Sequence record: MW250786
DNA from: Escherichia phage UPEC06
Direction: 5' to 3' (one strand)
DNA: 64,000 bases
In this document: positions 28,181 through 61,714 of the stretch, piece by piece
Layout of the letters: the number at the start of each line of letters is the position of its first letter
Numbering within the stretch: the stretch's first letter is position 1
The notes under the pieces: model-generated
Seen by the model: the letters and a program-made list of their open reading frames with translations, nothing else
Databases searched by the model: none
What the model was told of the DNA's origin: nothing
Made by a program: the position numbers and the translations under genes

Positions 28181-29176
28181 ATGCAAAATGGTGATTTTCA
28201 AATCCTGGATTACACTGGCCTGATCTCTACTCTGCCGCGTGTTGATACCCTGCTTCAAAGCATGAACCTGTTCACTGAGAACTTTGGTCGTACTACTATC
28301 GCTAAAATCGAACGTCGTGATGACGGTGCTGGTCAGATCAATGCTGTACAGCGTGGTAGCGTTCGTCAGCACCTGGGTAATGATCGTAAAAAGATCGTCA
28401 ACCTGAATATCCCGTTCTTCCCTCTGGACCGTTCTATCGACCGTGCAGACATTCAGAACTTCCGTGAATTCGGTACTGACAACGCTCCGGCAACTGTTGA
28501 AGCTGAAGTGGCTCGTCACCTTGCTAGAATTCGTCGCAGTCATGCAGTTCTGAAGTCTAAAGCAATGTACGCTGCTCTGAAAGGTACTTCCTGGTCGCCA
28601 AATGATCCGGTTTGTGATTACGACTACTACGATGTTTGGGGTGTAACCCAGCAGACTGCTGACGTTGACTTCACCGCTCTGGCTATTGACCCGATTGAAG
28701 TGCTGGAAGCTGAAGCTCGTGCACACATCATCGATTACGCTGGTGACCAAGGTGACAACTACGAGATCGTCGTTATGGCATCCCGTCAGTGGTTCTCTGC
28801 TCTGATCGCTCACCCGCAGGTAACTGGTGCATATTCTCAGTACCCTTCTACTCAGGAAGTCCTGCGTCGTCGTCTGGGCGGTAATGCCAACAACCGTATC
28901 TTCGAACACAAGAACATCCTGTTCATCGAAGACATTTCCGGTAACATCCCTGCTGGTGAAGCATACATCTTCCCTCGTGGTATCGATCGTATGTTCGAAA
29001 TCTATTACGCGCCGAGCGACACTCTGGAAGGTGCTAACCAAGTAGCTCAGGAACTGTATGTATTCTTCAAAGAATCTCAGTACCTGCGTGAAGCGAAGAT
29101 CGAATCTGAAACTTCCTTCCTGACTGTTAACAACCGTCCTGAACTGGTAGTTAAGTCTGTTGGTAAGTTTGAATAA
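28181..29176 (+). CDS. major capsid protein (lambda gpE-like family suggested)
   Basis: 331 aa, strong SD, follows scaffold/decoration genes, followed by a strong terminator. Confidence 0.55.
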   Translation: MQNGDFQILDYTGLISTLPRVDTLLQSMNLFTENFGRTTIAKIERRDDGAGQINAVQRGSVRQHLGNDRKKIVNLNIPFFPLDRSIDRADIQNFREFGTDNAPATVEAEVARHLARIRRSHAVLKSKAMYAALKGTSWSPNDPVCDYDYYDVWGVTQQTADVDFTALAIDPIEVLEAEARAHIIDYAGDQGDNYEIVVMASRQWFSALIAHPQVTGAYSQYPSTQEVLRRRLGGNANNRIFEHKNILFIEDISGNIPAGEAYIFPRGIDRMFEIYYAPSDTLEGANQVAQELYVFFKESQYLREAKIESETSFLTVNNRPELVVKSVGKFE

Positions 29177-29946: not shown

Positions 29947-32900
29947 ATGGCTGAATATAATGATAAGGTCGTGGAAGCATTCGTTACTGCTCCTGATCCT
30001 GTCGTAACTACCACTGGTGGTGGAGTTATTTTTAACGGTATTGAAACGGAAGATACTGTATCTACCCTGTTAGTTGGTAATGGTACTGCCTCTTCCCCTC
30101 TGCAAGCTCAAGTTAAGCTATCTCGCCGTGCAGGTAACGCCCTGACTCTGGTTCAGACTGATAACGAGGAAGGCTTGTTTGCTTCCGCTGGAGATGCTAA
30201 AGTATCTACCTCTCAGGCGAACGTTGCAAAATACGTCACTGCGGAAGAAGCTGCTGCTCAAGGTGATGCCAGTTTGGAAGGTGTTCTGGTTGAGCCAGTT
30301 CATGCTACCACTACCGCTGTTGGTGACGCACTGGAAATTACCGCAGATCCTCTGGTTGCTAAAAACTCCCGTATATCCCTGAAAGTTTCCACCTCTTCAA
30401 CTAACGCTTTGTCTGTAGACCCTGATGGTTTGGCAGTTAAAGTTTCCCCCGCTATCGACAACAGCTTGCAAGTTCGTGAAGGTGCACTGTATGTAGCTCC
30501 AGTTGGTGCTGACATTTCTCAAGATGCAGGTAACAAACTGGAACAACGTTCAGATGGTCTGTTTGTAGAAACCATCAAAGGTGACAAAGGCGATCAGGGT
30601 GAACAAGGACCAGCAGGTCCACAAGGCCCAGCCGGAGAAACTGGACCTGCTGGCCCGCAGGGTGAAAAAGGGGATAAAGGGGATACTGGAGAAGTCGGTC
30701 CTGCTGGCGCAACTGGACCTATCGGTCTGACTGGCGCAACTGGCCCTCGTGGTGTAGAAGGTCCTCGTGGCCCTGCTGGTATTGGTATCAACATCCTCGA
30801 CACCTTGGCATCTGAAGATCAATTGCCTTCTGTTGTTGATCTTGCGAATGGTGATACATACGTAATCGGACAGAGTTTCTTTACCGTTATCACTGAAGGT
30901 GGTATCAAACAATGGAGAAACGTAGGTAACTTCGCTGGACCTGAAGGTCTTTCTGCATTTGAAGTTGCTGAAACCGCAGGCTTTGTTGGAACAGTCGATG
31001 ACTGGTTGGCTACCCTTCGTGGTGCTGACGGTATAGGTCTGCAACTCCTTGGTTCTTTCCAGCGTATCGAAGATCTTCCTCAAGAAGAGAACAAACCTGG
31101 TGATGCCTACATCATTCAAGAAAAGATGTATGTTTGGACTGGTGATACAGATGGCTGGCAACCTGTAGGACAGATCGGTCCTGAAGGTCGTTCTGCTTAT
31201 CAGGTCTGGCTGGCTAACGGGAACGTAGGTTCTCAGCGTGAATTCCTTGAATCACTGAAAGGTGAGAAAGGTGATACTGGCGATCAGGGTCCTCAGGGTA
31301 TCCCAGGTGCAGATGGTAAAAATGCTAACGCCATTAATATCTTAGGTTCCGTTGCAGATCAGGCGAGTTTGCCAGAAGGTGCAGATGCAGGTGATGCTTA
31401 CCTGATCGGTACTAACGTATTCGTTTCTGATGGTGCTGGCAACTGGCAAGACTTGGGATCTTTCCAAGGTCCGCAAGGTCCTACTGGTGCTAAAGGCGAC
31501 AAGGGTGACAAAGGGGACAAAGGGGACAAAGGCGATAAAGGTGATGACAACTATGCCATCGCAGTTGCTAACGGTTTCCAAGGATCAGTAAATGAATACC
31601 TTGCATCTATCAAGGGTGAGAAAGGTGACGTTGGTGCAACTGGCCCTCGTGGATTGGCTGGTCCACAAGGTGAACAAGGTCCTGTTGGTGCGGGTCTGAA
31701 TATCCTTGGCTCAGTAGCTTCCGAAGATCAATTACCTCAGACTGGTATTAGTGAAGGTGACGCTTATCTGATTGAAGCTGATCTTTATATCTTCACTGGC
31801 GGTCAGTGGACTAACGTTGGTAACATCAAAGGTCCTCAGGGTGATATTGGTCCTGTAGGTCCACAAGGTCCTATCGGCTTGACTGGTGCACAGGGACCGC
31901 AGGGTGCAACAGGAGCACAAGGCCCTGCTGGCCCACAAGGTGAGACGGGTCCACAAGGTGGTATCGGTCCACAGGGAGAAACTGGAGAGAAAGGCGATAA
32001 GGGCGATAAAGGCGACAAGGGTGATATCGGAACGGGTATCGTAGCTCGTGGCGTTGTTGCAACCCAAAGTGCACTTCCTTCCGGCGCAGCACCTGGTGAT
32101 TTCTACGTTGTAGAAGATGAAGGTAACGGTTACGCTTGGGACGGTACAGCTTGGGTTTTAACTGGATTAGCTCGTGGACCTCAAGGTCTTAAAGGCGATA
32201 CCGGAGAAACCGGAGCCAAAGGTGATAAGGGCGATAAAGGTGATGCAGGCGATGCACTTAAGCTGAGAGGCTTGGTTGCAACTTCCGCTGAACTGCCTTC
32301 CACTGCTGAACTTGGTGACTTCTATGTCGCTGAAGACACCGGAATTGGTTACGCTTGGGATGGTGTTGCTTTCGTTTCTGCCGGAACCGTTAGAGGACCG
32401 CAAGGTGAAGTAGGGCCGCAGGGTGAAGTTGGTCCTCAAGGACCTCAAGGCGAGAAGGGAGATGCTGGCGAGCAAGGTCCTCAAGGATTGGTCGGTGAAA
32501 CAGGTGCAAAAGGTGATAAAGGAGATAAGGGTGACGTTGGCTCTGGTCTGATTCCGAGAGGAACTTTACCATCTCAAGCAGATCTTCCTCAAACTGGTGA
32601 AGTTGGTGACTTCTACGTAGCTAACGATACTGGTATTGGCTATGCTTTTGATGGAACTGCATTCGTAGAAGCTGGAGTTGCCCGTGGTCCACAGGGTGAA
32701 CAAGGACCCCAGGGTGAACAGGGACCACAAGGACTTAAAGGTGATACTGGTGAAACAGGTGCTCAGGGACCTCAAGGTGTTCAAGGTGAGAAAGGTGATA
32801 CCGGAGAACGTGGAGAGGTAGGTCCGCAAGGTGATCAGGGTCCGCAAGGTGAGCAAGGTCCTCAGGGTGATATCGGACCAGGTGTAGAGATCATTGGACG

Positions 32901-33747
32901 ATTTGATACCTCTGATGAATTACCTTCCACGGGTACTTTGGGTCAAGGTTACCTTATCCAAGGCGACTTCTGGGGTTGGACTGGTGCAGCATACGAGAAC
33001 TTGGGTCGTATTCAAGGTCCGGTTGGACCAGTAGGTCCTACGGGTGACCAAGGACCACAAGGCCCTGTCGGTAACAAAGGCGATAAAGGCGACCAAGGGA
33101 CCCTTTGGGTAGTTTTTGCTCGTGCACCAATGGTGAGCGATGGTCGTGTTAACGATCTGTACCTCAACTCTTCCACTCTGGAATATTACCGTAAAACTTC
33201 CGCAACGAACTGGGCACTGCTCGGATTCTTAGGTGGTGGTAACGTGTATGACGCACCAGGGGACGGAAAGCTGTATGTCCGTACTGATGGTGGTTGGGTT
33301 GAATTACCTACCGCAGAAGTTCTGGAAGCACCTCGTGATGGTAACCAATACGTCCGTAAAGACGGCGCTTGGACAACTGTTACAGTTCCTGTAACGGAAG
33401 CACCACTTGAAGGTGGATTCTACGTCCGTGAAAATGGTGCGTGGGTTAAACTGGATCAGTACGATTTACGTGTTGTTGCTTCAACTGGTGCAATTGATGC
33501 AAGCTCTGGTAATGCTTGGACTTTAGATGGTACAACCAACAAGTCCTTGACTATCACCGGATTGCCAGCAGGAAGGGCTAAAACCATAGTTTTACGATTC
33601 ACTGGTAACGGTGGTCAGATTAACTGGGATAGCCAGATCGCTTGGTCTAACGGAACAGCACCGACCCTCGGAGCTACCCGCACTATCCTGACCCTGTTCT
33701 GGGATGGTGAATTCCTGACTGGTACTCAGGCAATGACTGTAGGTTAA
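29947..33747 (+). CDS. collagen-like repeat fibre protein (side-tail-fibre-like)
   Basis: 1266 aa; long Gly-X-Y runs alternating with eight ~50-aa modules; C-terminal YVRxDGxW repeats x3 typical of phage tail-fibre repeats. Confidence 0.7.
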   Translation: MAEYNDKVVEAFVTAPDPVVTTTGGGVIFNGIETEDTVSTLLVGNGTASSPLQAQVKLSRRAGNALTLVQTDNEEGLFASAGDAKVSTSQANVAKYVTAEEAAAQGDASLEGVLVEPVHATTTAVGDALEITADPLVAKNSRISLKVSTSSTNALSVDPDGLAVKVSPAIDNSLQVREGALYVAPVGADISQDAGNKLEQRSDGLFVETIKGDKGDQGEQGPAGPQGPAGETGPAGPQGEKGDKGDTGEVGPAGATGPIGLTGATGPRGVEGPRGPAGIGINILDTLASEDQLPSVVDLANGDTYVIGQSFFTVITEGGIKQWRNVGNFAGPEGLSAFEVAETAGFVGTVDDWLATLRGADGIGLQLLGSFQRIEDLPQEENKPGDAYIIQEKMYVWTGDTDGWQPVGQIGPEGRSAYQVWLANGNVGSQREFLESLKGEKGDTGDQGPQGIPGADGKNANAINILGSVADQASLPEGADAGDAYLIGTNVFVSDGAGNWQDLGSFQGPQGPTGAKGDKGDKGDKGDKGDKGDDNYAIAVANGFQGSVNEYLASIKGEKGDVGATGPRGLAGPQGEQGPVGAGLNILGSVASEDQLPQTGISEGDAYLIEADLYIFTGGQWTNVGNIKGPQGDIGPVGPQGPIGLTGAQGPQGATGAQGPAGPQGETGPQGGIGPQGETGEKGDKGDKGDKGDIGTGIVARGVVATQSALPSGAAPGDFYVVEDEGNGYAWDGTAWVLTGLARGPQGLKGDTGETGAKGDKGDKGDAGDALKLRGLVATSAELPSTAELGDFYVAEDTGIGYAWDGVAFVSAGTVRGPQGEVGPQGEVGPQGPQGEKGDAGEQGPQGLVGETGAKGDKGDKGDVGSGLIPRGTLPSQADLPQTGEVGDFYVANDTGIGYAFDGTAFVEAGVARGPQGEQGPQGEQGPQGLKGDTGETGAQGPQGVQGEKGDTGERGEVGPQGDQGPQGEQGPQGDIGPGVEIIGRFDTSDELPSTGTLGQGYLIQGDFWGWTGAAYENLGRIQGPVGPVGPTGDQGPQGPVGNKGDKGDQGTLWVVFARAPMVSDGRVNDLYLNSSTLEYYRKTSATNWALLGFLGGGNVYDAPGDGKLYVRTDGGWVELPTAEVLEAPRDGNQYVRKDGAWTTVTVPVTEAPLEGGFYVRENGAWVKLDQYDLRVVASTGAIDASSGNAWTLDGTTNKSLTITGLPAGRAKTIVLRFTGNGGQINWDSQIAWSNGTAPTLGATRTILTLFWDGEFLTGTQAMTVG
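31495..31545 (+). repeat. tandem 9-bp coding repeat (GDK)n inside the collagen-like gene
   Basis: ggcgacaag/ggtgacaaa/ggggacaaa units encode [17 protein letters not shown]; similar runs near 31981-32020, 32215-32250 and 32515-32535. Confidence 0.6.
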
Positions 33748-41179: not shown

Positions 41180-41236
41180 ATAAATAGGGCTGGAGTCGAA
41201 AGACTCTGGCCTTTATTTTTATTATGAGGAGTCGAA

Positions 41237-43660
41237 ATGGCTGTTGAAGTAATTGCAACAACAAAGAACCGAGTCATATTTGAAACTGACAAAGGTTCCT
41301 ATCGAAAAGCTCGTGAGGAGATCCGAAAACTCTCCAACGAATGGAAAAAGGCTTCAACAGAGGCTACCGCTGCCGGAAAGAATTCTCCTGCTGAGGCTTA
41401 TAAACAATCCGCTCGTGAAATGAGACTAGTCAGTAAACGTCTGGAAGAAACTCGGAAGCGTGAGGAGAAGAAGGCCACTGATTATCGTATTGCTCTGGCA
41501 AAGAAAGAAGCCAAGGCAAAAGAGGCAATTCAGAAGGTTTCTGCTGCAAGAATACGACAACAGGTTAAAAGCCTGACGGCTGCATCCCCTGGTTCTGCTG
41601 AGATGAGAAAGTTCTATCAGGAACAGGAGAAAGCTGCCCGTGCTGCTGCAAGATCTGCAAACCGTACAGCGACACCTTTACCGCCTTTCAACATCCAACG
41701 TGTGGAAGCTGCAAATCAATTATTATCTCGCGGTAACAGAGAGCCAGGGTCAGGTATTGTTGGAGATCCTAATAGCCGATTCAACCCTGATTTAATTGCT
41801 GCACAAAACAGAGCGATGCAACGTAGTTCTCGTATCAAAGAGAGAATGGAGAAGCAACAAACTCAAGAACAGGAACGTGAACGTGTCCGCGCTGCTCGTG
41901 CTGCTGCCCGTATTGATGATGTTACAGCACAACAGCGTATTCGTCTATCTTCTCGTTATGGTCGTGGTTATGCAGGTGCTTTGGGTCGTGACTCGGAAGG
42001 TCGTGGGATTGAAGATCTTAATAGACAATTCCGTGCAGGAACGTTATCATCTGGTCAGTATCGTCAAAGCATACAGGCGCTAGAAAGACAATTCCGTGCT
42101 GCACAGTCAAGTGCTGGATCTTTCTCTTCCACACTTAAAGATGTTCGTTCCAGCCTGGTAAGTGCTACTGCCGCATACGGAGTTTTCTCAGCAGGTGCAT
42201 CAATAACTCGTCAAGGTCAATTCTTTGAAGGAATCAACGCAACTTCTCTATTGATCTCTGATTCGGCAGAAGAAGCTGGTCAGCGTGTTAAGTTTGTTCG
42301 TGACGAAGCATACCGTTTAGGTTTGGATCTGAAAACTGCATCGCAGGGATTTACCCAGTTAGCGATCTCTGCTGATGGTGTTATTAGTAAATCTCAAACA
42401 GACGAATTATTTAGTGCATTTTCTGAATATTCCACCGCACTTCAGGTCGATCCCGTAAGATATCAGCGTGGCATTACAGCAATTCAACAGATCCTTGGTA
42501 AAGGTCAAGTAATGGCTGAAGAACTTAAAGGCCAGTTGGCTGAAGCAATTCCAGGTTCCTTGCAGGTATTCTTGAAAGCAACTCAGGAAGCTTTTGGTGA
42601 CACCTCTATCGACATTGCAAAATTGCTCAAGCTGATGGAAGACGGTGAATTGAAAGCCTCCAAGATCATACCTTTGGTTGGTAAATACTATGCAGAGGCT
42701 GCTAATAAAGGTGGTGCACTGGATAAAGCTTTGGAAAGTAACCGTGTTGCTTATCAGCGTTTAACCCAGACTTTTGCAGAGTTCCAAAACAAAATATTCC
42801 AAGGTGGCTTTGGAGAACAACTTACAAGAGTGTTCAATAACTTAGCTACGATCCTGTCAAGTAATGGTAATGTTGCCAGCACCATTGGTAGATTCTTCGG
42901 TAACGTAATTGAAGGGTTTACAGACATGGTTCTTGAAATTCACGATAACTTGGTCCTTCTCGACCGTGTTGTGACTTACTATTTCAAGAAGATTGGTGTT
43001 GAAGGTGAAACTCTTCGACAGGTGTTCGACTGGGGTTCTTATCTCCTCGGGATTGGATTATTCCTTGGTGGATTGACTAAAGTGTTCAACATCCTTGCTA
43101 AGATTGCAGGACTTAAAGGTGCACTTAAGGAAATTCGTGGTACACTCGGTGGTGATTTGGCTACAGGTGGAAAAACGAGCACAGGTGCAAGCACAACTGC
43201 TTCTGGCGGGGCAGGTACACCAGGTCAAACCAGCGTAGCGGGTAGATTCAGTCAGCTTGGTAAGCTTGGCAAACTCTTCGGCCTTGGTACTCTTTACTCA
43301 GCAGGGTCAGAGATCAATGACCGCTTTATTCAAAGTGGAGAGAGCCGATTGGCTGGAGCAGGGCTTGACGCAACAGCTTTCCAGCAGCAATATGGTGTAA
43401 CTCCACAACCTGTCGGGTTAACGGATGTGTTCATGGAGTTGTTTGGTGGCTCTCGTGACATAACTGTAGATCCTAACACTATCTCGACTCCATCTGGTAT
43501 TCGCCCTAGCGGATTTCCTCTGGAAACTCCAGCAGCACCACCTGAAGGTAAGATCACCGTTGAGATCAAGAGTGGAGAGATTCGTCAATATATCCGTGCA
43601 ATTGTGGATGAAGAGAACGGATTCAATATCAACCTGCTCACTCAGGGTGGTAACCAATAA
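41237..43660 (+). CDS. tail tape measure protein
   Basis: 807 aa, Ala/Arg/Gln-rich N-terminal region, Gly-rich segment near C-terminus, canonical position. Confidence 0.7.
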   Translation: MAVEVIATTKNRVIFETDKGSYRKAREEIRKLSNEWKKASTEATAAGKNSPAEAYKQSAREMRLVSKRLEETRKREEKKATDYRIALAKKEAKAKEAIQKVSAARIRQQVKSLTAASPGSAEMRKFYQEQEKAARAAARSANRTATPLPPFNIQRVEAANQLLSRGNREPGSGIVGDPNSRFNPDLIAAQNRAMQRSSRIKERMEKQQTQEQERERVRAARAAARIDDVTAQQRIRLSSRYGRGYAGALGRDSEGRGIEDLNRQFRAGTLSSGQYRQSIQALERQFRAAQSSAGSFSSTLKDVRSSLVSATAAYGVFSAGASITRQGQFFEGINATSLLISDSAEEAGQRVKFVRDEAYRLGLDLKTASQGFTQLAISADGVISKSQTDELFSAFSEYSTALQVDPVRYQRGITAIQQILGKGQVMAEELKGQLAEAIPGSLQVFLKATQEAFGDTSIDIAKLLKLMEDGELKASKIIPLVGKYYAEAANKGGALDKALESNRVAYQRLTQTFAEFQNKIFQGGFGEQLTRVFNNLATILSSNGNVASTIGRFFGNVIEGFTDMVLEIHDNLVLLDRVVTYYFKKIGVEGETLRQVFDWGSYLLGIGLFLGGLTKVFNILAKIAGLKGALKEIRGTLGGDLATGGKTSTGASTTASGGAGTPGQTSVAGRFSQLGKLGKLFGLGTLYSAGSEINDRFIQSGESRLAGAGLDATAFQQQYGVTPQPVGLTDVFMELFGGSRDITVDPNTISTPSGIRPSGFPLETPAAPPEGKITVEIKSGEIRQYIRAIVDEENGFNINLLTQGGNQ

Positions 43661-57171: not shown

Positions 57172-57206
57172 AGAAAAGGCGCTCAAATGAGCGCCTTTAT
57201 TTTTAT
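57172..57206. terminator. bidirectional rho-independent terminator between convergent genes
   Basis: AAAGGCGCTC-AAAT-GAGCGCCTTT hairpin flanked by an A-run upstream and ATTTTTAT downstream. Confidence 0.65.
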
Positions 57207-57219
57207 CTAAATTTTACGA

Positions 57220-58395
57220 TCAAAACGGAATATCGTCGTCAAAATCCATATCATCTACAGACATATTCACATGGCCTTCGATATCAGGTGTAGGTGAATC
57301 TTCTGCTGACGGAGTTAACTGCGGTTCCGGCTCAGATTTCTTTTCTTCTTGCTTAGGGGTTGAAGCCCCGTTACGGATCTTATCTTCCAACTGACAGATA
57401 AATCGGAAATTCTCTTCTGTTTTAGCAATAAACGTTTCAATGTTATTACTTCCCCAACGGGCAGAAAGAATACCACACTGGCCTAAACGAGCACCAAAAG
57501 AATAATCATCCATAGATTTAAACTCTTCGCGAAGTTTTGCTTTAATGGAGTCCATCGCTGCAAGAACTTGCTCTACAACAATACCCTGATTTACGATCGT
57601 TTCATTCGGGAACATCGCATCTGTGATAGACAGTGCATTACCTAAACGAATAGGCAGATCGTCTTTACCTTTACCTGAACGTGATCCTGTTCCAGTACTT
57701 GCACCTTTTGGACCGTAAGCTTTAAAGCCTGTAACCGTACCATCATCTGAACGAACACCTGCAATACGACCACCTTCTGTAATCTGACCCGTCTGTTCAT
57801 CAGTGAGGTTTACAGTAACTTCTGTGCCGTCTTCCAGCTTAACAACTACCTTATTGCCTTCGATAGATGTGATATCACCATAAATCTTCTTAGCTGCACC
57901 ACCAGACGGCTTTTGCTGCTGTTGGGAACCATTTGATTGCTGCTGTTGCTGACGAGGCTCACGAGCACCGGATGCGTCAGTAATCTTGATACGTGCTTTC
58001 TTACCTTCCGTAGAAGAACCCTGACTACCATCTTGTTTGGTGTAGGTCTTGATAACAACAGGTAAGCGAATTTTCATACCTTCTTTAAGATCAGTGTAAC
58101 CACCTTCAGGATTTTTAATCTGGAACTGATTCTCATACTTCAGGTTTTTAACTTCACCTTCACCAAAAGAAATCCAAGCCTGGTCTTCACCTTCTTTCAG
58201 AAGAACTGCATAGCGGTGGGTATTGTTAATGCTTTTTTGCTGACCTGTATTCTTATCTTTAAAGGTGGTAACGCGTGGACTACCATCTTCATTAATACGT
58301 TTAATGAGGATACGTTCAATCGTACCTGCTGCAATGTTTACTGTGGTATCGGAAACAGCATCGTATACAGCATTGATAACTTTAACTTCAGACAT
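57220..58395 (-). CDS. ssb: single-stranded DNA-binding protein (SSB-like)
   Basis: C-terminus DDMDFDDDIPF matches the canonical SSB acidic tail; Gly/Gln-rich linker; 391 aa is longer than bacterial SSB. Confidence 0.6.
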   Translation of the reverse strand: MSEVKVINAVYDAVSDTTVNIAAGTIERILIKRINEDGSPRVTTFKDKNTGQQKSINNTHRYAVLLKEGEDQAWISFGEGEVKNLKYENQFQIKNPEGGYTDLKEGMKIRLPVVIKTYTKQDGSQGSSTEGKKARIKITDASGAREPRQQQQQSNGSQQQQKPSGGAAKKIYGDITSIEGNKVVVKLEDGTEVTVNLTDEQTGQITEGGRIAGVRSDDGTVTGFKAYGPKGASTGTGSRSGKGKDDLPIRLGNALSITDAMFPNETIVNQGIVVEQVLAAMDSIKAKLREEFKSMDDYSFGARLGQCGILSARWGSNNIETFIAKTEENFRFICQLEDKIRNGASTPKQEEKKSEPEPQLTPSAEDSPTPDIEGHVNMSVDDMDFDDDIPF

Positions 58396-58478: not shown

Positions 58479-58859
58479 TTAGAGATAAACTCGCTTAACT
58501 TTTTCATGAACATTATCAAACAAAGTGTTGATCATCTGCAAGTCTTTAATAAGTTCTTCCGTAAATTGTTCTTCTTTGTGAGCAAACACACGAGAACGGT
58601 CAATGTTTACGGGATCTGCACTTTGGTCACCAGACAGGTCGAAAATGTCGATACCAATACGAGCACGACCTTTTTCAATCTTATTCTCATCATCAATACC
58701 ATAAACACTCATGATTTGCATTTCACGATCTTCTTCTTTGTTTGTATAGATGATCGTGGTATTCAGATTCTTAATGCCATCATAAATGTGGATATTACGT
58801 GTAGCTGAGATAGGAATCCAATCACCAACCAGATAATCTTTACCGTCGAAAATACTCAT
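58479..58859 (-). CDS. hypothetical protein
   Basis: ORF track. Confidence 0.35.
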   Translation of the reverse strand: MSIFDGKDYLVGDWIPISATRNIHIYDGIKNLNTTIIYTNKEEDREMQIMSVYGIDDENKIEKGRARIGIDIFDLSGDQSADPVNIDRSRVFAHKEEQFTEELIKDLQMINTLFDNVHEKVKRVYL

Positions 58860-58913
58860 CTTCTTTCCTCTGTTGTTTAAGTGGGGCCATTATGCCCCAA
58901 GTAGTACTTTCTG

Positions 58914-59501
58914 TCAAGGACGTTTTGGTGGACTAACGACACCTTTTTTAGATAAAGGTAATTCGTCTGCATCTTTTCCACGAAGAGATTCTAGCCACTC
59001 ATCTAAAGACAGGGGTACTTTACCATCACCTTTGGACCACACAGACAAGCAATACAGATCGTATGCAGATGGACCTCGATCACCTTTGTCACCATTCGGC
59101 CCTTTTAAGCTCTCCAACCAATCCTTTTCGTTCAGTGGGATAGCACCTGGATCTTCTTGATGAAGAACTCTTAGGTATGTTTCATAAGCAGACTCTCCAC
59201 GAGGACCCATTTGACCCTTCTCACCTTGTGGCCCTTTTGCATAATCTGCGTACTTAGATTCCAGATATGCAGACTTCACACCTTCAGGGGCAACGGAAAC
59301 CTTATACAATGACCAAGCTAACAGAGCTATCCAACAAGCAAACAGTGCAAGCGGATAAGGGATCATTGAAGTAAAGAATGACAGAGCTAAAATTACAACC
59401 TTGTTCTTGTGATTACGACGGAAAGCGATGATCACAGGGGCTAACCAGATAGCAAAGATAACCCACGCAGATAAGATAAACAACCAACTAATGTATTCCA
59501 T
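58914..59501 (-). CDS. membrane protein with collagen-like GXY / SAY...WLESLKG motifs
   Basis: Three N-terminal hydrophobic segments, then two copies of GP.GE.G...SAY...WLESL(K/R)G, the motif family seen in the 29947 fibre protein. Confidence 0.45.
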   Translation of the reverse strand: MEYISWLFILSAWVIFAIWLAPVIIAFRRNHKNKVVILALSFFTSMIPYPLALFACWIALLAWSLYKVSVAPEGVKSAYLESKYADYAKGPQGEKGQMGPRGESAYETYLRVLHQEDPGAIPLNEKDWLESLKGPNGDKGDRGPSAYDLYCLSVWSKGDGKVPLSLDEWLESLRGKDADELPLSKKGVVSPPKRP

Positions 59502-59689
59502 TAAGCCTCCTCGGTATCGTCTTTAAAGTAATCTAACATCCAACTTTCTACAGGGGTTGCATAGTAACCCGTTCGACCTTTCTTTTGAAACTCCATGATA
59601 ATTTCATTTGCAATACCTTTTGTGATTGCGATCCCGATCAGTGCACCACCAGGTCCCATTACTGCATGTGAACTAAGATCATTACTCAT
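59501..59689 (-). CDS. hypothetical protein
   Basis: ORF track; overlapping start/stop. Confidence 0.3.
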   Translation of the reverse strand: MSNDLSSHAVMGPGGALIGIAITKGIANEIIMEFQKKGRTGYYATPVESWMLDYFKDDTEEA

Positions 59690-59981
59690 TTTTAACCCCC
59701 TTCATTTTATCTCTTAAACTTTGAGCATCCCACGTATAACCTGAGGAGATACCTTTTTCACGTTCACTATCTTTGAACTTGCAAATTACAGATTTTGCTT
59801 CACCATCAACAACAACCGCATAACTGTTGTAATAATTGTGTTGCTTCTTGCAAAATTCGTGTAACTCCTTAACCTCTATTGGCATCAGAGAAGGTAGATT
59901 TTTGTATCGCTTTGTCTGATCATCTTCACCATCTCCGCAACCAACAAGAAGAAGTATACATAAAATGATTAACCTTTTCAA
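59682..59981 (-). CDS. putative lipoprotein
   Basis: Signal peptide with lipobox LVGC; TTG start with GGGGGT SD-like sequence. Confidence 0.4.
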   Translation of the reverse strand: MKRLIILCILLLVGCGDGEDDQTKRYKNLPSLMPIEVKELHEFCKKQHNYYNSYAVVVDGEAKSVICKFKDSEREKGISSGYTWDAQSLRDKMKGVKNE

Positions 59982-60129
59982 TAGCTACCCCCAAAATATT
60001 TTGTAATCTCTACTGCAAATATTGTCCCAAGTATAAACCATGTGGCACTTAGTACGTTGAAGGGTAAAAACCTTGATCCTGTAAGAGAAACCATAATGAA
60101 AAACGTTACAAAAATCTCTGGAGAAATCA

Positions 60130-60531
60130 TCATTGTTTGATAGTCCCCTTGGCGATCATCTCGTCAAGTTCATCTTCCGCACGACACATAATCTGATAGA
60201 TAGTCTCTGGATTGTTTAAGAATTCTGTGTACTTTTTGATACGACAAACTAAACGTGCACGAACTTTACGCTCACGGGCCACATGATTAAAGTAATGTCC
60301 CTTTTGTCTGTAGATCCAAGCATAATATACAGTTTTTGCTCTATTGCGATCACAACCTAAACGTTCAGCCAACAGAGTGTAAGGGTCATTATTAGTGGGA
60401 CCAAACAAAAATATTTCTGCAAAACTTTCCTTCATGATACGAGATTCTTCATCCGTGATTCGCGGACATTCTTCAGAACCGTAGCGTGGGGTTTTAGTGG
60501 CATTTGGCTTCTTAGGGTATACTTTACGCAT
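60130..60531 (-). CDS. hypothetical protein (basic; possibly nucleic-acid binding)
   Basis: Basic composition with several Cys (CPRI, CDRN, CRIK, CRAE). Confidence 0.3.
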   Translation of the reverse strand: MRKVYPKKPNATKTPRYGSEECPRITDEESRIMKESFAEIFLFGPTNNDPYTLLAERLGCDRNRAKTVYYAWIYRQKGHYFNHVARERKVRARLVCRIKKYTEFLNNPETIYQIMCRAEDELDEMIAKGTIKQ

Positions 60532-60598: not shown

Positions 60599-61207
60599 TC
60601 AATCACAACTACTTGAAGAACTACTGCTGCTACTGTCAGAAGAATAACTATCATATGATGATGAGCTATCATACGAACTTGATCGACTTGAAGAACAGTA
60701 AGAACTTGAACTACTTGTACGATCTTCACTGGAGGACATTACAGCAGCATACGTTGCCACACCACCTAAAGCTGCCACCTGAGGATCAACCTGGCTAGTT
60801 CCATATCCATTTGGAGAGTCGCTCATCTTACGTGGTGCTGCCCGACGTGCCTGATCAATATACTGTCGCTTTGCCTTCGGCGGTAATTTCTTACCTTGAG
60901 CATAGGACGGTAATTCAACGCCCTTCAGTTGTTCATTCAAAGGTTTCGGCGGTGTAGCCTGTGATTTTGGTCGTTCAACAGAGATATCAACAACCTTCAT
61001 CGTCTTATCCTTGATGTTTACCCCAACCAGTACTTCATTTTCTTTTAATGGCTTTTCAAGATCGCGTGTTTCAACTGGACCAAATTTAACGCTTGCAGTT
61101 TCCTGACGTTGTTCGGCCTGCTTTGCAATATATTTGTCGATCGCCGCAGTTTCTACTTCCAGCGGAATAAACAGTGATTTTACCCAAGCAACAAACTTCT
61201 TGATCAT
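60599..61207 (-). CDS. hypothetical protein with serine-rich low-complexity C-terminus
   Basis: C-terminal SSSEDRTSSSSSYCSSSRSSSYDSSSSYDSYSSDSSSSSSSSSCD. Confidence 0.4.
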   Translation of the reverse strand: MIKKFVAWVKSLFIPLEVETAAIDKYIAKQAEQRQETASVKFGPVETRDLEKPLKENEVLVGVNIKDKTMKVVDISVERPKSQATPPKPLNEQLKGVELPSYAQGKKLPPKAKRQYIDQARRAAPRKMSDSPNGYGTSQVDPQVAALGGVATYAAVMSSSEDRTSSSSSYCSSSRSSSYDSSSSYDSYSSDSSSSSSSSSCD

Positions 61208-61428: not shown

Positions 61429-61714
61429 TATTCGGATTCAGTTTCTTTTCTGCGGTCTTCAAAATAATATCCAGCTTTTCAATTTCCTTATGTAAAGGCT
61501 CAGATAATAACTTCTCACCAAAAAGCCAGAATTTCTTCATGCCTTTCTTAACGCACTTCCCCATAAAGCCCGCGAGGTCTTCTAGTCGCCAAGCGATAAA
61601 ACTAAATATTGCAGCTAAAAGGTGAATCACGGCCAGCAGTAAACGATGTGGGTTTAGTACAGCAAGGCACAGGATCATAAAGATTATTTTAGTAAATCCC
61701 CAAATAATTTTCAT
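61397..61714 (-). CDS. hypothetical membrane protein
   Basis: Two N-terminal hydrophobic segments. Confidence 0.3.
   Translation of the reverse strand: MKIIWGFTKIIFMILCLAVLNPHRLLLAVIHLLAAIFSFIAWRLEDLAGFMGKCVKKGMKKFWLFGEKLLSEPLHKEIEKLDIILKTAEKKLNPNNVDKGEDDGV

What the first reader, a model, noticed from the sequence alone, without database searches (positions are those of the whole stretch)
58914..59501. Membrane protein carrying the same collagen-like motif as the virion fibre
The 195-aa minus-strand ORF has three N-terminal hydrophobic segments and then two tandem copies of GP.GE.G...SAY..Y...(W)LESL(K/R)G. The 29947 fibre contains the same motif family (GPEGRSAYQVWLANGNVGSQREFLESLKGEKGD). 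A membrane-anchored copy of a structural fibre motif in an early-type region is unexpected and could act as a decoy, an exclusion factor or a recombination donor.
Basis: partly seen in the sequence, partly recalled or inferred. Interest (0 to 1): 0.65.

Follow-up and report, generated by a model that had tools for sequence, protein, structure and literature searches.

The report
Imm-like membrane protein with fibre-like tail
The gene encodes a small phage membrane protein related to the T4 protein that blocks a second phage from injecting DNA, and it carries a short collagen-like stalk built from a module otherwise found in phage fibres, a combination no database names.

Summary
ORF 58914-59501(-) is a conserved 195-aa gene with a strong RBS. 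It has three N-terminal hydrophobic helices and two tandem 'G-x-SAY...(D/E)WLESL(K/R)G' modules. The virion fibre gene at 29947 carries three copies of the same module family, well beyond compositional chance.

The protein belongs to an unannotated family found in Septuagintavirus, Certrevirus and Salmonella phage SSBI34, and in metagenome contigs, three of which show the same gene order. Its layout is Imm-like domain, then 0-13 Gly-X-Y triplets, then 0-2 fibre modules, then an invariant tail '...PLSKxGV' plus basic residues. Only this genus has two modules.

The module is widespread in phage fibres (399 phage records). It shows no DNA similarity to this phage's fibre gene, so the recombination-donor reading fails. 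Domain fusions in Pfam-verified relatives suggest an N-out/C-in topology. That would put the fibre-like part in the cytoplasm, which argues against a periplasmic decoy.

Best reading (about 0.45): a superinfection-immunity protein whose fibre-like stalk oligomerises it and presents the conserved tail. This is a new variant of a known kind, of moderate interest. Function and topology are untested.

The parts
58914..59501 (-). 195-aa gene: Imm-like membrane domain, then collagen-like/fibre-module stalk, then conserved tail
   Evidence: dN/dS 0.07-0.24.
59506..59512 (-). Shine-Dalgarno GAGGAGG, 4 nt before the ATG. The start overlaps the upstream stop as TAATG.
59301..59501 (-). aa 1-67: Imm_superinfect-type membrane domain. 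Helices 2-28, 34-45 and 50-65, with the basic loop RRNHKNK.
   Evidence: PF14373 E 6.5e-4, sub-threshold. hhalign vs T4 Imm prob 87.5%, E 3.6e-6. AF2 pLDDT >90. Foldseek top three hits are phage superinfection immunity proteins. The family profile retrieves PF14373 proteins scoring 30-70 bits.
59235..59285 (-). aa 73-89: degenerate half module (EGVKSAYLESKYADYAK). It lies inside the local divergence hot spot.
59190..59234 (-). aa 90-104: Gly-X-Y run 1 (5 triplets)
59100..59198 (-). aa 102-134: fibre module 1 (GESAYETYLRVLHQEDPGAIPLNEKDWLESLKG)
59067..59102 (-). aa 134-145: Gly-X-Y run 2 (4 triplets)
58977..59075 (-). aa 143-175: fibre module 2 (GPSAYDLYCLSVWSKGDGKVPLSLDEWLESLRG)
58917..58979 (-). 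aa 175-195: family-invariant tail GKDADELPLSKKGVVSPPKRP
   Evidence: P182, L183, S184 and G187 are invariant or nearly invariant across the 26 family sequences. The tail HMM hits 18 of 104 representatives and nothing else in the window.
29947..33747 (+). 1266-aa collagen-like virion fibre carrying three copies of the same module family. DNA coordinates of the copies: 30937-31023, 31177-31263, 31540-31617.
   Evidence: The W70 homologue (phrog_3904) is in the virion.
59682..59981 (-). Conserved lipoprotein gene (lipobox LLVGC) upstream of the Imm-like gene in 11 of 12 examined loci
58479..58859 (-). DUF7325 gene, conserved a short way downstream. It is immediately downstream in the window; some relatives have 1-3 small genes inserted between.

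Best explanation
The gene encodes an inner-membrane protein of the T4 Imm (Imm_superinfect, PF14373) kind. It is made from an early/replication-type operon.

By analogy with T4 Imm, which binds the tape-measure protein of a second infecting phage and stops its DNA crossing the inner membrane, the membrane domain most likely confers superinfection immunity against this phage and its relatives.

The C-terminal extension is a miniature fibre: short Gly-X-Y runs interrupted by two helix-loop-helix modules of the type that punctuates collagen-like phage fibres. It most likely serves as a trimerising stalk or spacer. That would cluster the Imm domains and present the one element invariant across the family, the tail '(D)A(DE)(I/L)PLSKxGV' plus basic residues, to an unknown partner.

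The topology is probably N-terminus out and C-terminus in, which puts the fibre-like part in the cytoplasm.

Shown: architecture, homology, conservation and module identity. Inferred: exclusion function, trimerisation, topology and tail binding.
For: Imm homology:
- PF14373 hits 7 of 8 family members below threshold, best 1.8e-5. phrog_1039 'immunity to superinfection' scores 2e-5.
- hhalign of the family against T4 Imm gives prob 87.5%, E 3.6e-6. It aligns P22/A26/R29/W57 with T4 P26/A30/R33/W55.
- T4 R33A impairs exclusion, and T4 Imm binds the TMP gp29 (bioRxiv 10.64898/2026.03.06.709160).
- In the AF2 model the domain has pLDDT >90. Its three best BFVD matches are phage 'superinfection immunity' proteins, prob 0.97-1.0, TM-target up to 0.81.
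- An exhaustive HMMER search with the family N-terminal profile retrieves proteins that individually pass PF14373's threshold at 30-70 bits.

Family architecture: across 26 sequences the layout is Imm domain + (GXY)0-13 + 0-2 modules + invariant tail.

Stalk as oligomeriser: other PF14373 proteins carry SHOCT (putative oligomerisation) or Zn-ribbon domains at the same C-terminal position.

Topology:
- Charge census over the family (K/R: D/E): N-tail 0:25, loop 1 100:12.
- Relatives have signal-peptide N-terminal extensions and C-terminal Zn-ribbons.
- The T4 Imm N-terminus is periplasmic.

Context and expression:
- The gene lies in a cluster with an SSB-like gene, has a strong RBS and is translationally coupled.
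- Its homologue is not in the W70 virion proteome.
- The phage's own TMP (41228-43657) has a hydrophobic helix, so a T4-type target exists.
Against: - The direct Pfam score is below the gathering threshold (20 vs 27.9 bits).
- Only T4 Imm has a demonstrated function in PF14373, and most members are uncharacterised.
- No experiment addresses this family. No expression-timing data exist for this genus.
- AF2 gives low confidence (pLDDT 40-60) for the extension. Trimerisation could not be modelled.
- Four to five triplets are marginal for a stable triple helix.
- Helices 34-45 and 50-65 are short for full membrane spans, so the C-in topology is an inference from fusions in distant relatives.
- One family member (P0007) has no stalk at all, so the stalk is dispensable for whatever the tail does.
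Confidence: 0.45

Rival explanations
1. Periplasmic fibre mimic or decoy. The extension faces the periplasm and engages the fibres or tail tip of incoming virions, or a host envelope component. It would exclude phages at or before tube insertion.
For: A two-span reading cannot be excluded from sequence alone, in which aa 35-66 form one long kinked helix and both N- and C-termini are outside. The adjacent conserved lipoprotein has a probable disulfide and suggests an envelope-directed gene pair. T4 likewise pairs Imm with the periplasmic protein Spackle (PMC7677548).
Against: - PF14373 relatives carry C-terminal Zn-ribbons and N-terminal signal-peptide extensions, which implies C-in.
- Some family members have charged residues (PDEYK) between helices 3 and 4, which argues against a single helix.
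- Incoming fibres stay outside the outer membrane.
- Certrevirus homologues lack the module although their fibres carry it.
- The family's C-terminal ends are strongly basic.
Confidence: 0.1
2. Holin or lysis-timing protein. A small three-helix, N-out/C-in membrane protein with a charged, basic cytoplasmic C-terminus matches the class I holin layout, and the extension would tune timing.
For: - The predicted layout fits.
- No holin or spanin is annotated in Septuagintavirus, and the M15 endolysin of A5-4 has no membrane-protein neighbour.
- A review notes that Imm 'resembles a holin' (PMC6832632).
Against: - The gene lies about 80 kb from the endolysin in an early-type cluster.
- The specific homology is to Imm, whose tested function is exclusion.
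- Foldseek holin hits are insignificant, prob <=0.06.
- There is no dual-start motif.
Confidence: 0.12
3. Cytoplasmic tether or poison for collagen-like fibre subunits. The membrane-anchored stalk co-trimerises with nascent fibre chains through the shared module and Gly-X-Y. The chains could be the phage's own or a co-infecting relative's. The effect would be to localise or sabotage fibre assembly.
For: - The module family is shared with the most abundant virion fibre.
- The probable cytoplasmic location coincides with fibre synthesis.
- The linker plus module 1 is a divergence and recombination hot spot among close relatives, with dS 0.47-0.65 against about 0.1.
Against: - The ORF's modules are of a longer-loop subtype, 33-41 aa against 26-29 aa. 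They are on the whole slightly closer to family modules than to the fibre's, though module 2 matches fibre copy 2 as well as it matches the P0008 module (55% each).
- Most family members have no module and one has no Gly-X-Y at all.
- dN/dS is 0.23, so there is no sign of an arms race.
- Only 43% identity to the fibre module.
Confidence: 0.07
4. Recombination donor. The ORF is a reservoir of module sequence that exchanges with the fibre gene.
For: Only the shared protein motif.
Against: blastn finds no match longer than 22 nt between the ORF and the fibre gene. The two modules share no DNA similarity with each other either.
Confidence: 0.02
5. Spanin-like pair with the upstream lipoprotein.
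For: A lipoprotein gene sits beside the membrane-protein gene, conserved in 11 loci.
Against: - The gene order is reversed relative to i-/o-spanins.
- The membrane partner is multi-helix and Imm-like, not a single type-II TMD with a coiled coil.
- The lipoprotein is a folded alpha/beta domain, not a short Pro-rich peptide.
- One relative lacks the lipoprotein.
Confidence: 0.03

Closest known systems
Phage T4 Imm (Imm_superinfect, PF14373)
   Same: The small helical inner-membrane domain is shared. So is the motif P-x3-A-x2-R-...-W, including the counterpart of the functionally required T4 R33. Both are early-region genes near replication genes, and the predicted fold matches.
   Different: - Sequence identity is about 25% and the Pfam score is sub-threshold.
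- There is a 6-residue insertion with an invariant Pro where T4 has the W50 loop.
- A 40-130 aa collagen-like/fibre-module extension and a conserved tail replace T4's 18-residue C-terminus.
- Function is untested.
Bacterial PF14373 proteins with C-terminal SHOCT or zinc-ribbon domains
   Same: The Imm_superinfect domain is followed by a small C-terminal accessory, possibly oligomerising, domain.
   Different: Here the accessory part is Gly-X-Y repeats plus phage-fibre modules, which was not seen in those proteins. Those proteins are cellular and of unknown function.
Collagen-like phage fibre proteins (phrog_3904 and related; E. coli prophage EPclA-D, PMC3368898)
   Same: Gly-X-Y runs are interrupted by non-collagenous modules. 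The 'SAY...WLxSLKG' module is shared with fibres in 399 phage records.
   Different: - Those are long (400-1300 aa), soluble, virion-incorporated trimers with N- and C-terminal fibre domains.
- This protein is 195 aa, membrane-anchored and absent from the virion proteome.
- It has only 9 triplets and none of the PfN, PfC or Fibritin_C domains.
HK97 gp15 and other inner-membrane superinfection-exclusion proteins that target the TMP
   Same: They are proposed to work in the same way, by blocking genome delivery at the inner membrane through the tape-measure protein.
   Different: No sequence relationship was tested or found. This is an analogy only.
Class I holins (e.g. lambda S)
   Same: Three membrane helices, a probable N-out/C-in layout and a basic cytoplasmic C-terminus.
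   Different: There is no sequence or significant structural similarity. The gene is not next to the endolysin, and the specific homology is to Imm.

Membership tests
Imm_superinfect (PF14373) / T4 Imm | Sequence match to the Pfam model at or above the gathering score (27.9 bits) | tested here: not met
   The window protein scores 20 bits, E 6.5e-4. 7 of 8 family members hit below threshold, best 1.8e-5.
Imm_superinfect (PF14373) / T4 Imm | Profile-level homology to T4 Imm and to bona fide PF14373 members | tested here: met
   hhalign prob 87.5%, E 3.6e-6 over 53 columns. The family profile retrieves proteins scoring 30-70 bits on PF14373.
Imm_superinfect (PF14373) / T4 Imm | Same fold (compact helical membrane domain) | tested here: met
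   AF2 pLDDT >90 for aa 1-66. The top three BFVD hits are phage superinfection immunity proteins, prob 0.97-1.0, TM-target 0.47-0.81. E-values are weak (0.09-0.9) because the domain is small.
Imm_superinfect (PF14373) / T4 Imm | Conservation of functionally required residues (T4 R33, W50) | tested here: inconclusive
   The R33 counterpart (R29) is nearly invariant. The W50 loop is replaced by a 6-residue insertion with invariant P48.
Imm_superinfect (PF14373) / T4 Imm | Excludes superinfecting phage DNA; binds the tape-measure protein | not testable with these tools
   Needs plating, DNA-entry and pull-down experiments.
Collagen triple-helix repeat proteins (PF01391) | Uninterrupted Gly-X-Y repeats long enough to pass the Pfam threshold | tested here: not met
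   16.4 bits vs 27.2. The runs are 5 and 4 triplets. Relatives have up to 13 triplets, and the precomputed Pfam table lists Collagen (PF01391) for P0014.
Collagen triple-helix repeat proteins (PF01391) | Forms a trimeric triple helix | not testable with these tools
   Only monomer prediction was available, and the extension has pLDDT 40-60.
Phage-fibre 'SAY...(D/E)WLxSL(K/R)G' module (no curated family) | Match to a profile built from fibre copies only, above composition controls | tested here: met
   18.7 bits, E 6e-5, with the next ORF at 2.5 bits. Shuffle maximum 7.0 against 22.5 for the real sequence. Hits to tail-fibre PHROGs 19976, 15437, 4440 and 3904. No Pfam family and no PDB sequence match.
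Virion structural fibre | Present in purified virions | tested here: not met
   The homologue is absent from the 28 W70 virion proteins, while the fibre homologue W70_131 is the top entry (PMC11370258).
Class I holin | Three TMDs, N-out/C-in, charged C-terminus | tested here: inconclusive
   The layout is compatible, but helices 3 and 4 are short.
Class I holin | Linked to the endolysin or a lysis cassette; lethal hole formation | tested here: not met
   The endolysin in A5-4 lies about 80 kb away. Lethality is not testable here.
Two-component spanin | i-spanin (single N-terminal TMD plus periplasmic coiled coil) followed by a short Pro-rich o-spanin lipoprotein | tested here: not met
   The lipoprotein precedes the membrane protein and is a folded alpha/beta domain. 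The membrane protein is multi-helix and Imm-like.

The most novel reading that the evidence does not exclude
The extension could be a cytoplasmic, membrane-tethered mimic of the phage's collagen-like fibre. It would co-trimerise with fibre subunits through the shared module and Gly-X-Y register. The subunits could be those of a co-infecting relative, giving dominant-negative exclusion at the assembly stage, or the phage's own, giving membrane-localised assembly. That would add a second, post-entry layer of competition to an Imm-type entry block. The local recombination hot spot over the linker and module 1 would then reflect allele-specific recognition.
Probability: 0.07. Interest if true: 0.8.

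Novelty: new variant of a known kind. Interest (0 to 1): 0.45.

Why it matters
T4 Imm has only just been given a mechanism (binding to the tape-measure protein). Outside T4 the PF14373 family is essentially uncharacterised.

This family shows that virulent Enterobacteriaceae myoviruses (Septuagintavirus, Certrevirus, Salmonella phage SSBI34) carry an Imm-type domain joined to a modular, length-variable, fibre-derived stalk and a strictly conserved terminal peptide.

If the protein does exclude superinfection, it gives a natural series of stalk lengths: no stalk at all, 3-13 Gly-X-Y triplets without a module, and one or two modules. That series can be used to dissect how Imm-type proteins work and whether oligomerisation matters. 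It is also relevant to designing phage cocktails that use these genera.

It further documents a fibre module with no Pfam family or solved structure being used outside a virion protein.

If the protein is instead the missing holin of these phages, that would also fill an annotation gap.

Tried and rejected
- Recent recombination between the ORF and the fibre gene. blastn (word size 7-11) found only 19-22 nt Gly-X-Y matches, and the two modules share no DNA similarity. Rejected.
- The conserved tail as a copy of the fibre's post-collagen segment. A tail HMM hit nothing else in the window. Rejected.
- Solved structure for the module. phmmer and a 9-copy profile against PDB sequences gave only chance hits. 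Foldseek of the whole model against the PDB found nothing. There is no Pfam family for the module.
- The upstream lipoprotein as a known exclusion protein (Llp, Cor, Spackle-like). The AF2 model (pLDDT 78) has no significant PDB fold match. NCBIfam gives only a signal-peptide-level EexN hit at E 0.096. Led nowhere.
- PADLOC defence models for the ORF and four neighbours: no hits.
- NCBIfam: no meaningful hits.
- Names in public sources: every family member is 'hypothetical protein'.
- Literature searches for Imm plus collagen-like fusions found nothing relevant. The 1993 T4 Imm topology paper is not held.
- Positive selection on the modules. dN/dS is 0.23 at most, and the hot spot reflects high dS, meaning allele exchange. 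Rejected.
- The AFDB50 fold library was unavailable. No multimer prediction was possible, so trimerisation stays untested.
- A holin beside the endolysin that would exclude the holin rival: none found. That rival stays open.

Full report
**What the window is**

Region 57-62 kb is 92-96% identical to five Escherichia phages of the subfamily Vequintavirinae: vB_EcoM-LTH01, A73, W70, A5-4 and A7_1. A source name and PMC11370258 place these in the genus Septuagintavirus. All genes in this stretch are annotated 'hypothetical protein'.

**Checking the observation**

- The ORF 58914..59501(-) exists, is 195 aa and starts with ATG.
- A GAGGAGG Shine-Dalgarno lies 4 nt upstream, and the start overlaps the upstream ORF's stop as TAATG.
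- Hydropathy shows hydrophobic stretches at aa 3-27, 35-47 and 50-66. AF2 with a 26-sequence alignment gives helices 2-19/21-28, 34-45 and 50-65 at pLDDT >90.
- Two modules lie at aa 102-134 and 143-175. Each is predicted as helix-loop-helix. A degenerate half copy lies at aa 73-89.
- The 1266-aa ORF at 29947 is a collagen-like fibre (PF01391 4.6e-44, phrog_3904 E = 0, C-terminal Fibritin_C). It carries three copies of the same module family at aa 331-359, 411-439 and 532-557.

The resemblance is not just Gly-X-Y composition:
- BLASTP gives 43% identity, E 1e-8, with composition correction.
- An HMM built from the fibre copies alone scores the ORF at 18.7 bits (E 6e-5). The next best of 1040 six-frame ORFs scores 2.5 bits.
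- 2000 shuffles of the ORF's C-terminus reach at most 7.0 bits, against 22.5 for the real sequence.

No other ORF in the window has the module.

Among close relatives the gene is under purifying selection: dN/dS 0.07-0.13 for the membrane domain, 0.23-0.24 for the linker plus module 1, and 0-0.09 for module 2 plus tail.

**What the N-terminus is**

- Pfam gives a sub-threshold Imm_superinfect hit (PF14373, E 6.5e-4, 20 bits against a cut-off of 27.9). PHROGs gives phrog_15593 (unknown function, 7.5e-19) and phrog_1039 'immunity to superinfection' (2e-5).
- Seven of eight family members hit PF14373 below threshold.
- A profile of the family aligned to T4 Imm (taken from NC_000866) gives hhalign probability 87.5%, E 3.6e-6 over 53 columns. 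The family-invariant P22, A26 and W57 and the nearly invariant R29 fall on T4 P26, A30, W55 and R33.
- A 2026 preprint reports that T4 Imm binds the tape-measure protein gp29, that its N-terminus faces the periplasm, and that R33A and W50A impair exclusion (10.64898/2026.03.06.709160).
- The three best Foldseek matches of the AF2 model in BFVD are phage 'superinfection immunity' proteins, with prob 0.97-1.0, TM-target 0.47-0.81 and rmsd 1.5 Å for Serratia phage PS2.
- An exhaustive HMMER search of 1.84 billion representatives with the N-terminal profile found 104 proteins at E <= 1e-3. All ten of the more distant hits I scanned pass PF14373's own threshold at 30-70 bits.

I conclude the domain is a divergent member of the Imm_superinfect superfamily. 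Direct Pfam membership is not met.

**The family**

tblastn finds syntenic homologues in Certrevirus phages (CR3, CR8, CR9, PBES 02, Pectobacterium and Enterobacter phages) and in Salmonella phage SSBI34. The exhaustive search adds metagenomic members.

All share four parts:
1. An Imm-like domain.
2. 0-13 Gly-X-Y triplets.
3. 0-2 fibre modules.
4. An invariant tail, G(K/R)DA(D/E)E(I/L)PLSxxGV, followed by basic residues.

Of the 104 representatives, 18 have the tail, 17 have at least 4 triplets and 5 have modules (plus P0004 by eye). P0004, P0008, P0010 and P0013 have one module each. Only the Septuagintavirus cluster has two. P0007 has no stalk at all.

The locus of P0010 is fully syntenic with the window but has one module. 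Its start resembles the window's module 1 and its end resembles module 2.

In an NJ tree of the membrane domain, the module-bearing members are scattered (no support values). The module-tail junction 'WLESL(K/R)GKDADE' is the same in all of them except P0004. I infer that the module is an old, repeatedly lost or duplicated option in this family, not a recent capture.

The ORF's modules have a loop about 7 residues longer than the fibre's. They are on the whole slightly closer to family modules (55-63%) than to the fibre's (41-55%), although module 2 matches fibre copy 2 as well as it matches P0008.

There is no DNA similarity to the fibre gene or between the two modules.

The fibre's module region has homologues in 399 phage records across many host genera, annotated as tail fibre, collagen-like or minor tail proteins. 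PBES 02 has the fibre modules (73.6% identity) although its Imm-like protein lacks them.

No Pfam family or PDB sequence covers the module.

**Topology**

A charge census over 26 members (K/R: D/E) gives:

| Segment | K/R | D/E |
|---|---|---|
| N-tail | 0 | 25 |
| Loop 1 | 100 | 12 |
| Loop 2 | 1 | 6 |
| 15 residues after helix 4 | 46 | 37 |

This supports N-out with loop 1 inside.

Some members have charged residues in loop 2 (PFPDEYKW). That argues against aa 35-66 forming a single helix.

Among PF14373 relatives retrieved by the family profile, several have N-terminal extensions that look like signal peptides, by eye. Several others have C-terminal zinc ribbons (PF13240, PF13248, PF12773) or SHOCT domains. 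Zinc ribbons are expected to be cytoplasmic, from established knowledge, so the Imm domain is most simply N-out/C-in.

By inference, at perhaps 65-70%, the fibre-like extension is cytoplasmic. This is not shown. Helices 3 and 4 are short for full spans.

**Context**

The gene lies in a minus-strand operon:
- a 133-aa ORF;
- a 51-aa ORF with two hydrophobic segments;
- a conserved lipoprotein;
- a 62-aa ORF;
- the Imm-like gene;
- a DUF7325 gene;
- a 391-aa protein ending in the SSB-type tip DDMDFDDDIPF.

The operon ends at a bidirectional terminator (57175-57198) facing the late structural genes.

The lipoprotein accompanies the gene in 11 loci but not in L012. Its AF2 model has no significant PDB match.

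In W70 the fibre homologue is the most abundant virion protein by spectral count. The Imm-like homologue is not among the 28 virion proteins.

The phage's tape-measure protein (41228-43657, phrog_5255) has a hydrophobic helix at aa 606-624. A T4-type target for an Imm domain is therefore available.

**Mechanism**

The best-supported reading is an Imm-type superinfection-immunity protein. Its fibre-like stalk would oligomerise or space the protein, the same position where other PF14373 proteins carry SHOCT. The stalk would present the invariant tail to an unknown partner.

- Shown: the architecture, the homology and the conservation.
- Inferred: the exclusion function, the trimerisation, the topology and the tail's role.

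Rivals:
- A periplasmic decoy. It is weakened by the fusion-based topology and by the module-less homologues.
- A class I-like holin. The layout fits and no holin is annotated in the genus, but the gene is about 80 km... about 80 kb from the endolysin and the homology is to Imm.
- A cytoplasmic tether or poison for fibre subunits. This is the most novel reading and has little support.
- A recombination donor. This is refuted at the DNA level.
- A spanin pair. The defining features are not met.

**Novelty**

No source names any family member. PADLOC and NCBIfam give nothing. Literature searches found no description of an Imm domain fused to collagen-like or fibre modules.

This is a new variant of a known kind. 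It is real, conserved and unusual in architecture, but its function is inferred by homology to a single characterised protein.

Noticed in passing
window 57220-58395 (-): 391-aa protein (phrog_4477, 'unknown function') that ends in DDMDFDDDIPF, the acidic tip typical of E. coli SSB. It is probably the phage single-stranded-DNA-binding protein, and it is unannotated in relatives.
   Followed up: partly
window 59682-59981 (-): 99-aa lipoprotein (lipobox LLVGC, two further invariant Cys, phrog_15849). It lies just upstream of the Imm-like gene in 11 loci. The AF2 model is alpha/beta with pLDDT 78 and has no significant PDB fold match.
   Followed up: yes
window 59978-60133 (-) and 59501-59689 (-): Two small ORFs flank the lipoprotein: a 51-aa ORF with two hydrophobic segments and a 62-aa soluble ORF. 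Both are conserved in the syntenic metagenomic locus L013. Function unknown.
   Followed up: partly
window 60599-61207 (-): 202-aa protein with an extreme Ser/Tyr/Asp low-complexity C-terminus (…SSSSSYCSSSRSSSYDSSSSYDSYSSDSSSSSSSSSCD). A similar tail is encoded upstream in locus L012.
   Followed up: no
window 29947-33747 (+): The collagen-like 'fibre' has a C-terminal Fibritin_C (foldon-type) domain at aa 1083-1122 and lies two genes after the major head protein gene (28181-29176). Its W70 homologue has the highest spectral count in the virion. It may be a whisker or head-associated fibre rather than a tail fibre.
   Followed up: partly
window 57175-57198: A perfect 10-bp-stem bidirectional terminator lies between the convergent early (minus-strand) and late (plus-strand) gene clusters.
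   Followed up: partly
window 59070-59339; also 60240-60329 and 61590-61679: Local divergence hot spots (15-34% DNA difference) sit in an otherwise 96-100% identical background relative to LTH01 and A5-4. This indicates mosaic allele exchange. The first hot spot covers the linker and module 1 of the ORF.
   Followed up: partly
window 58889-58917 (-): A promoter-like site, TTGACA-17-CATAAT (11 of 12 matches), overlaps the ORF's stop codon, upstream of the DUF7325 gene. The scan as a whole was not enriched over shuffles.
   Followed up: no
L003 2842-3504, L004 2817-3461, L010 1823-2461, L011 1830-2483: Several Certrevirus phages (PBES 02, CR9, POP15, KaOmega) carry an extra 212-220 aa gene between the Imm-like gene and DUF7325. 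In CR9 it is annotated 'virion structural protein'. It is absent from the window and from CR3, PcCB7V and DU_PP_I.
   Followed up: no
window 41228-43657 (+): The tape-measure protein (phrog_5255, E 1.8e-291) has a strongly hydrophobic segment at aa 606-624 (LLGIGLFLGGLTKVFNILA). This resembles the membrane helix described for T4 gp29.
   Followed up: partly
L018 (A5-4 112.5-118 kb): The M15 endolysin of this genus sits among nucleotide-metabolism genes with no membrane-protein neighbour. No holin or spanin is annotated anywhere in these phages.
   Followed up: partly
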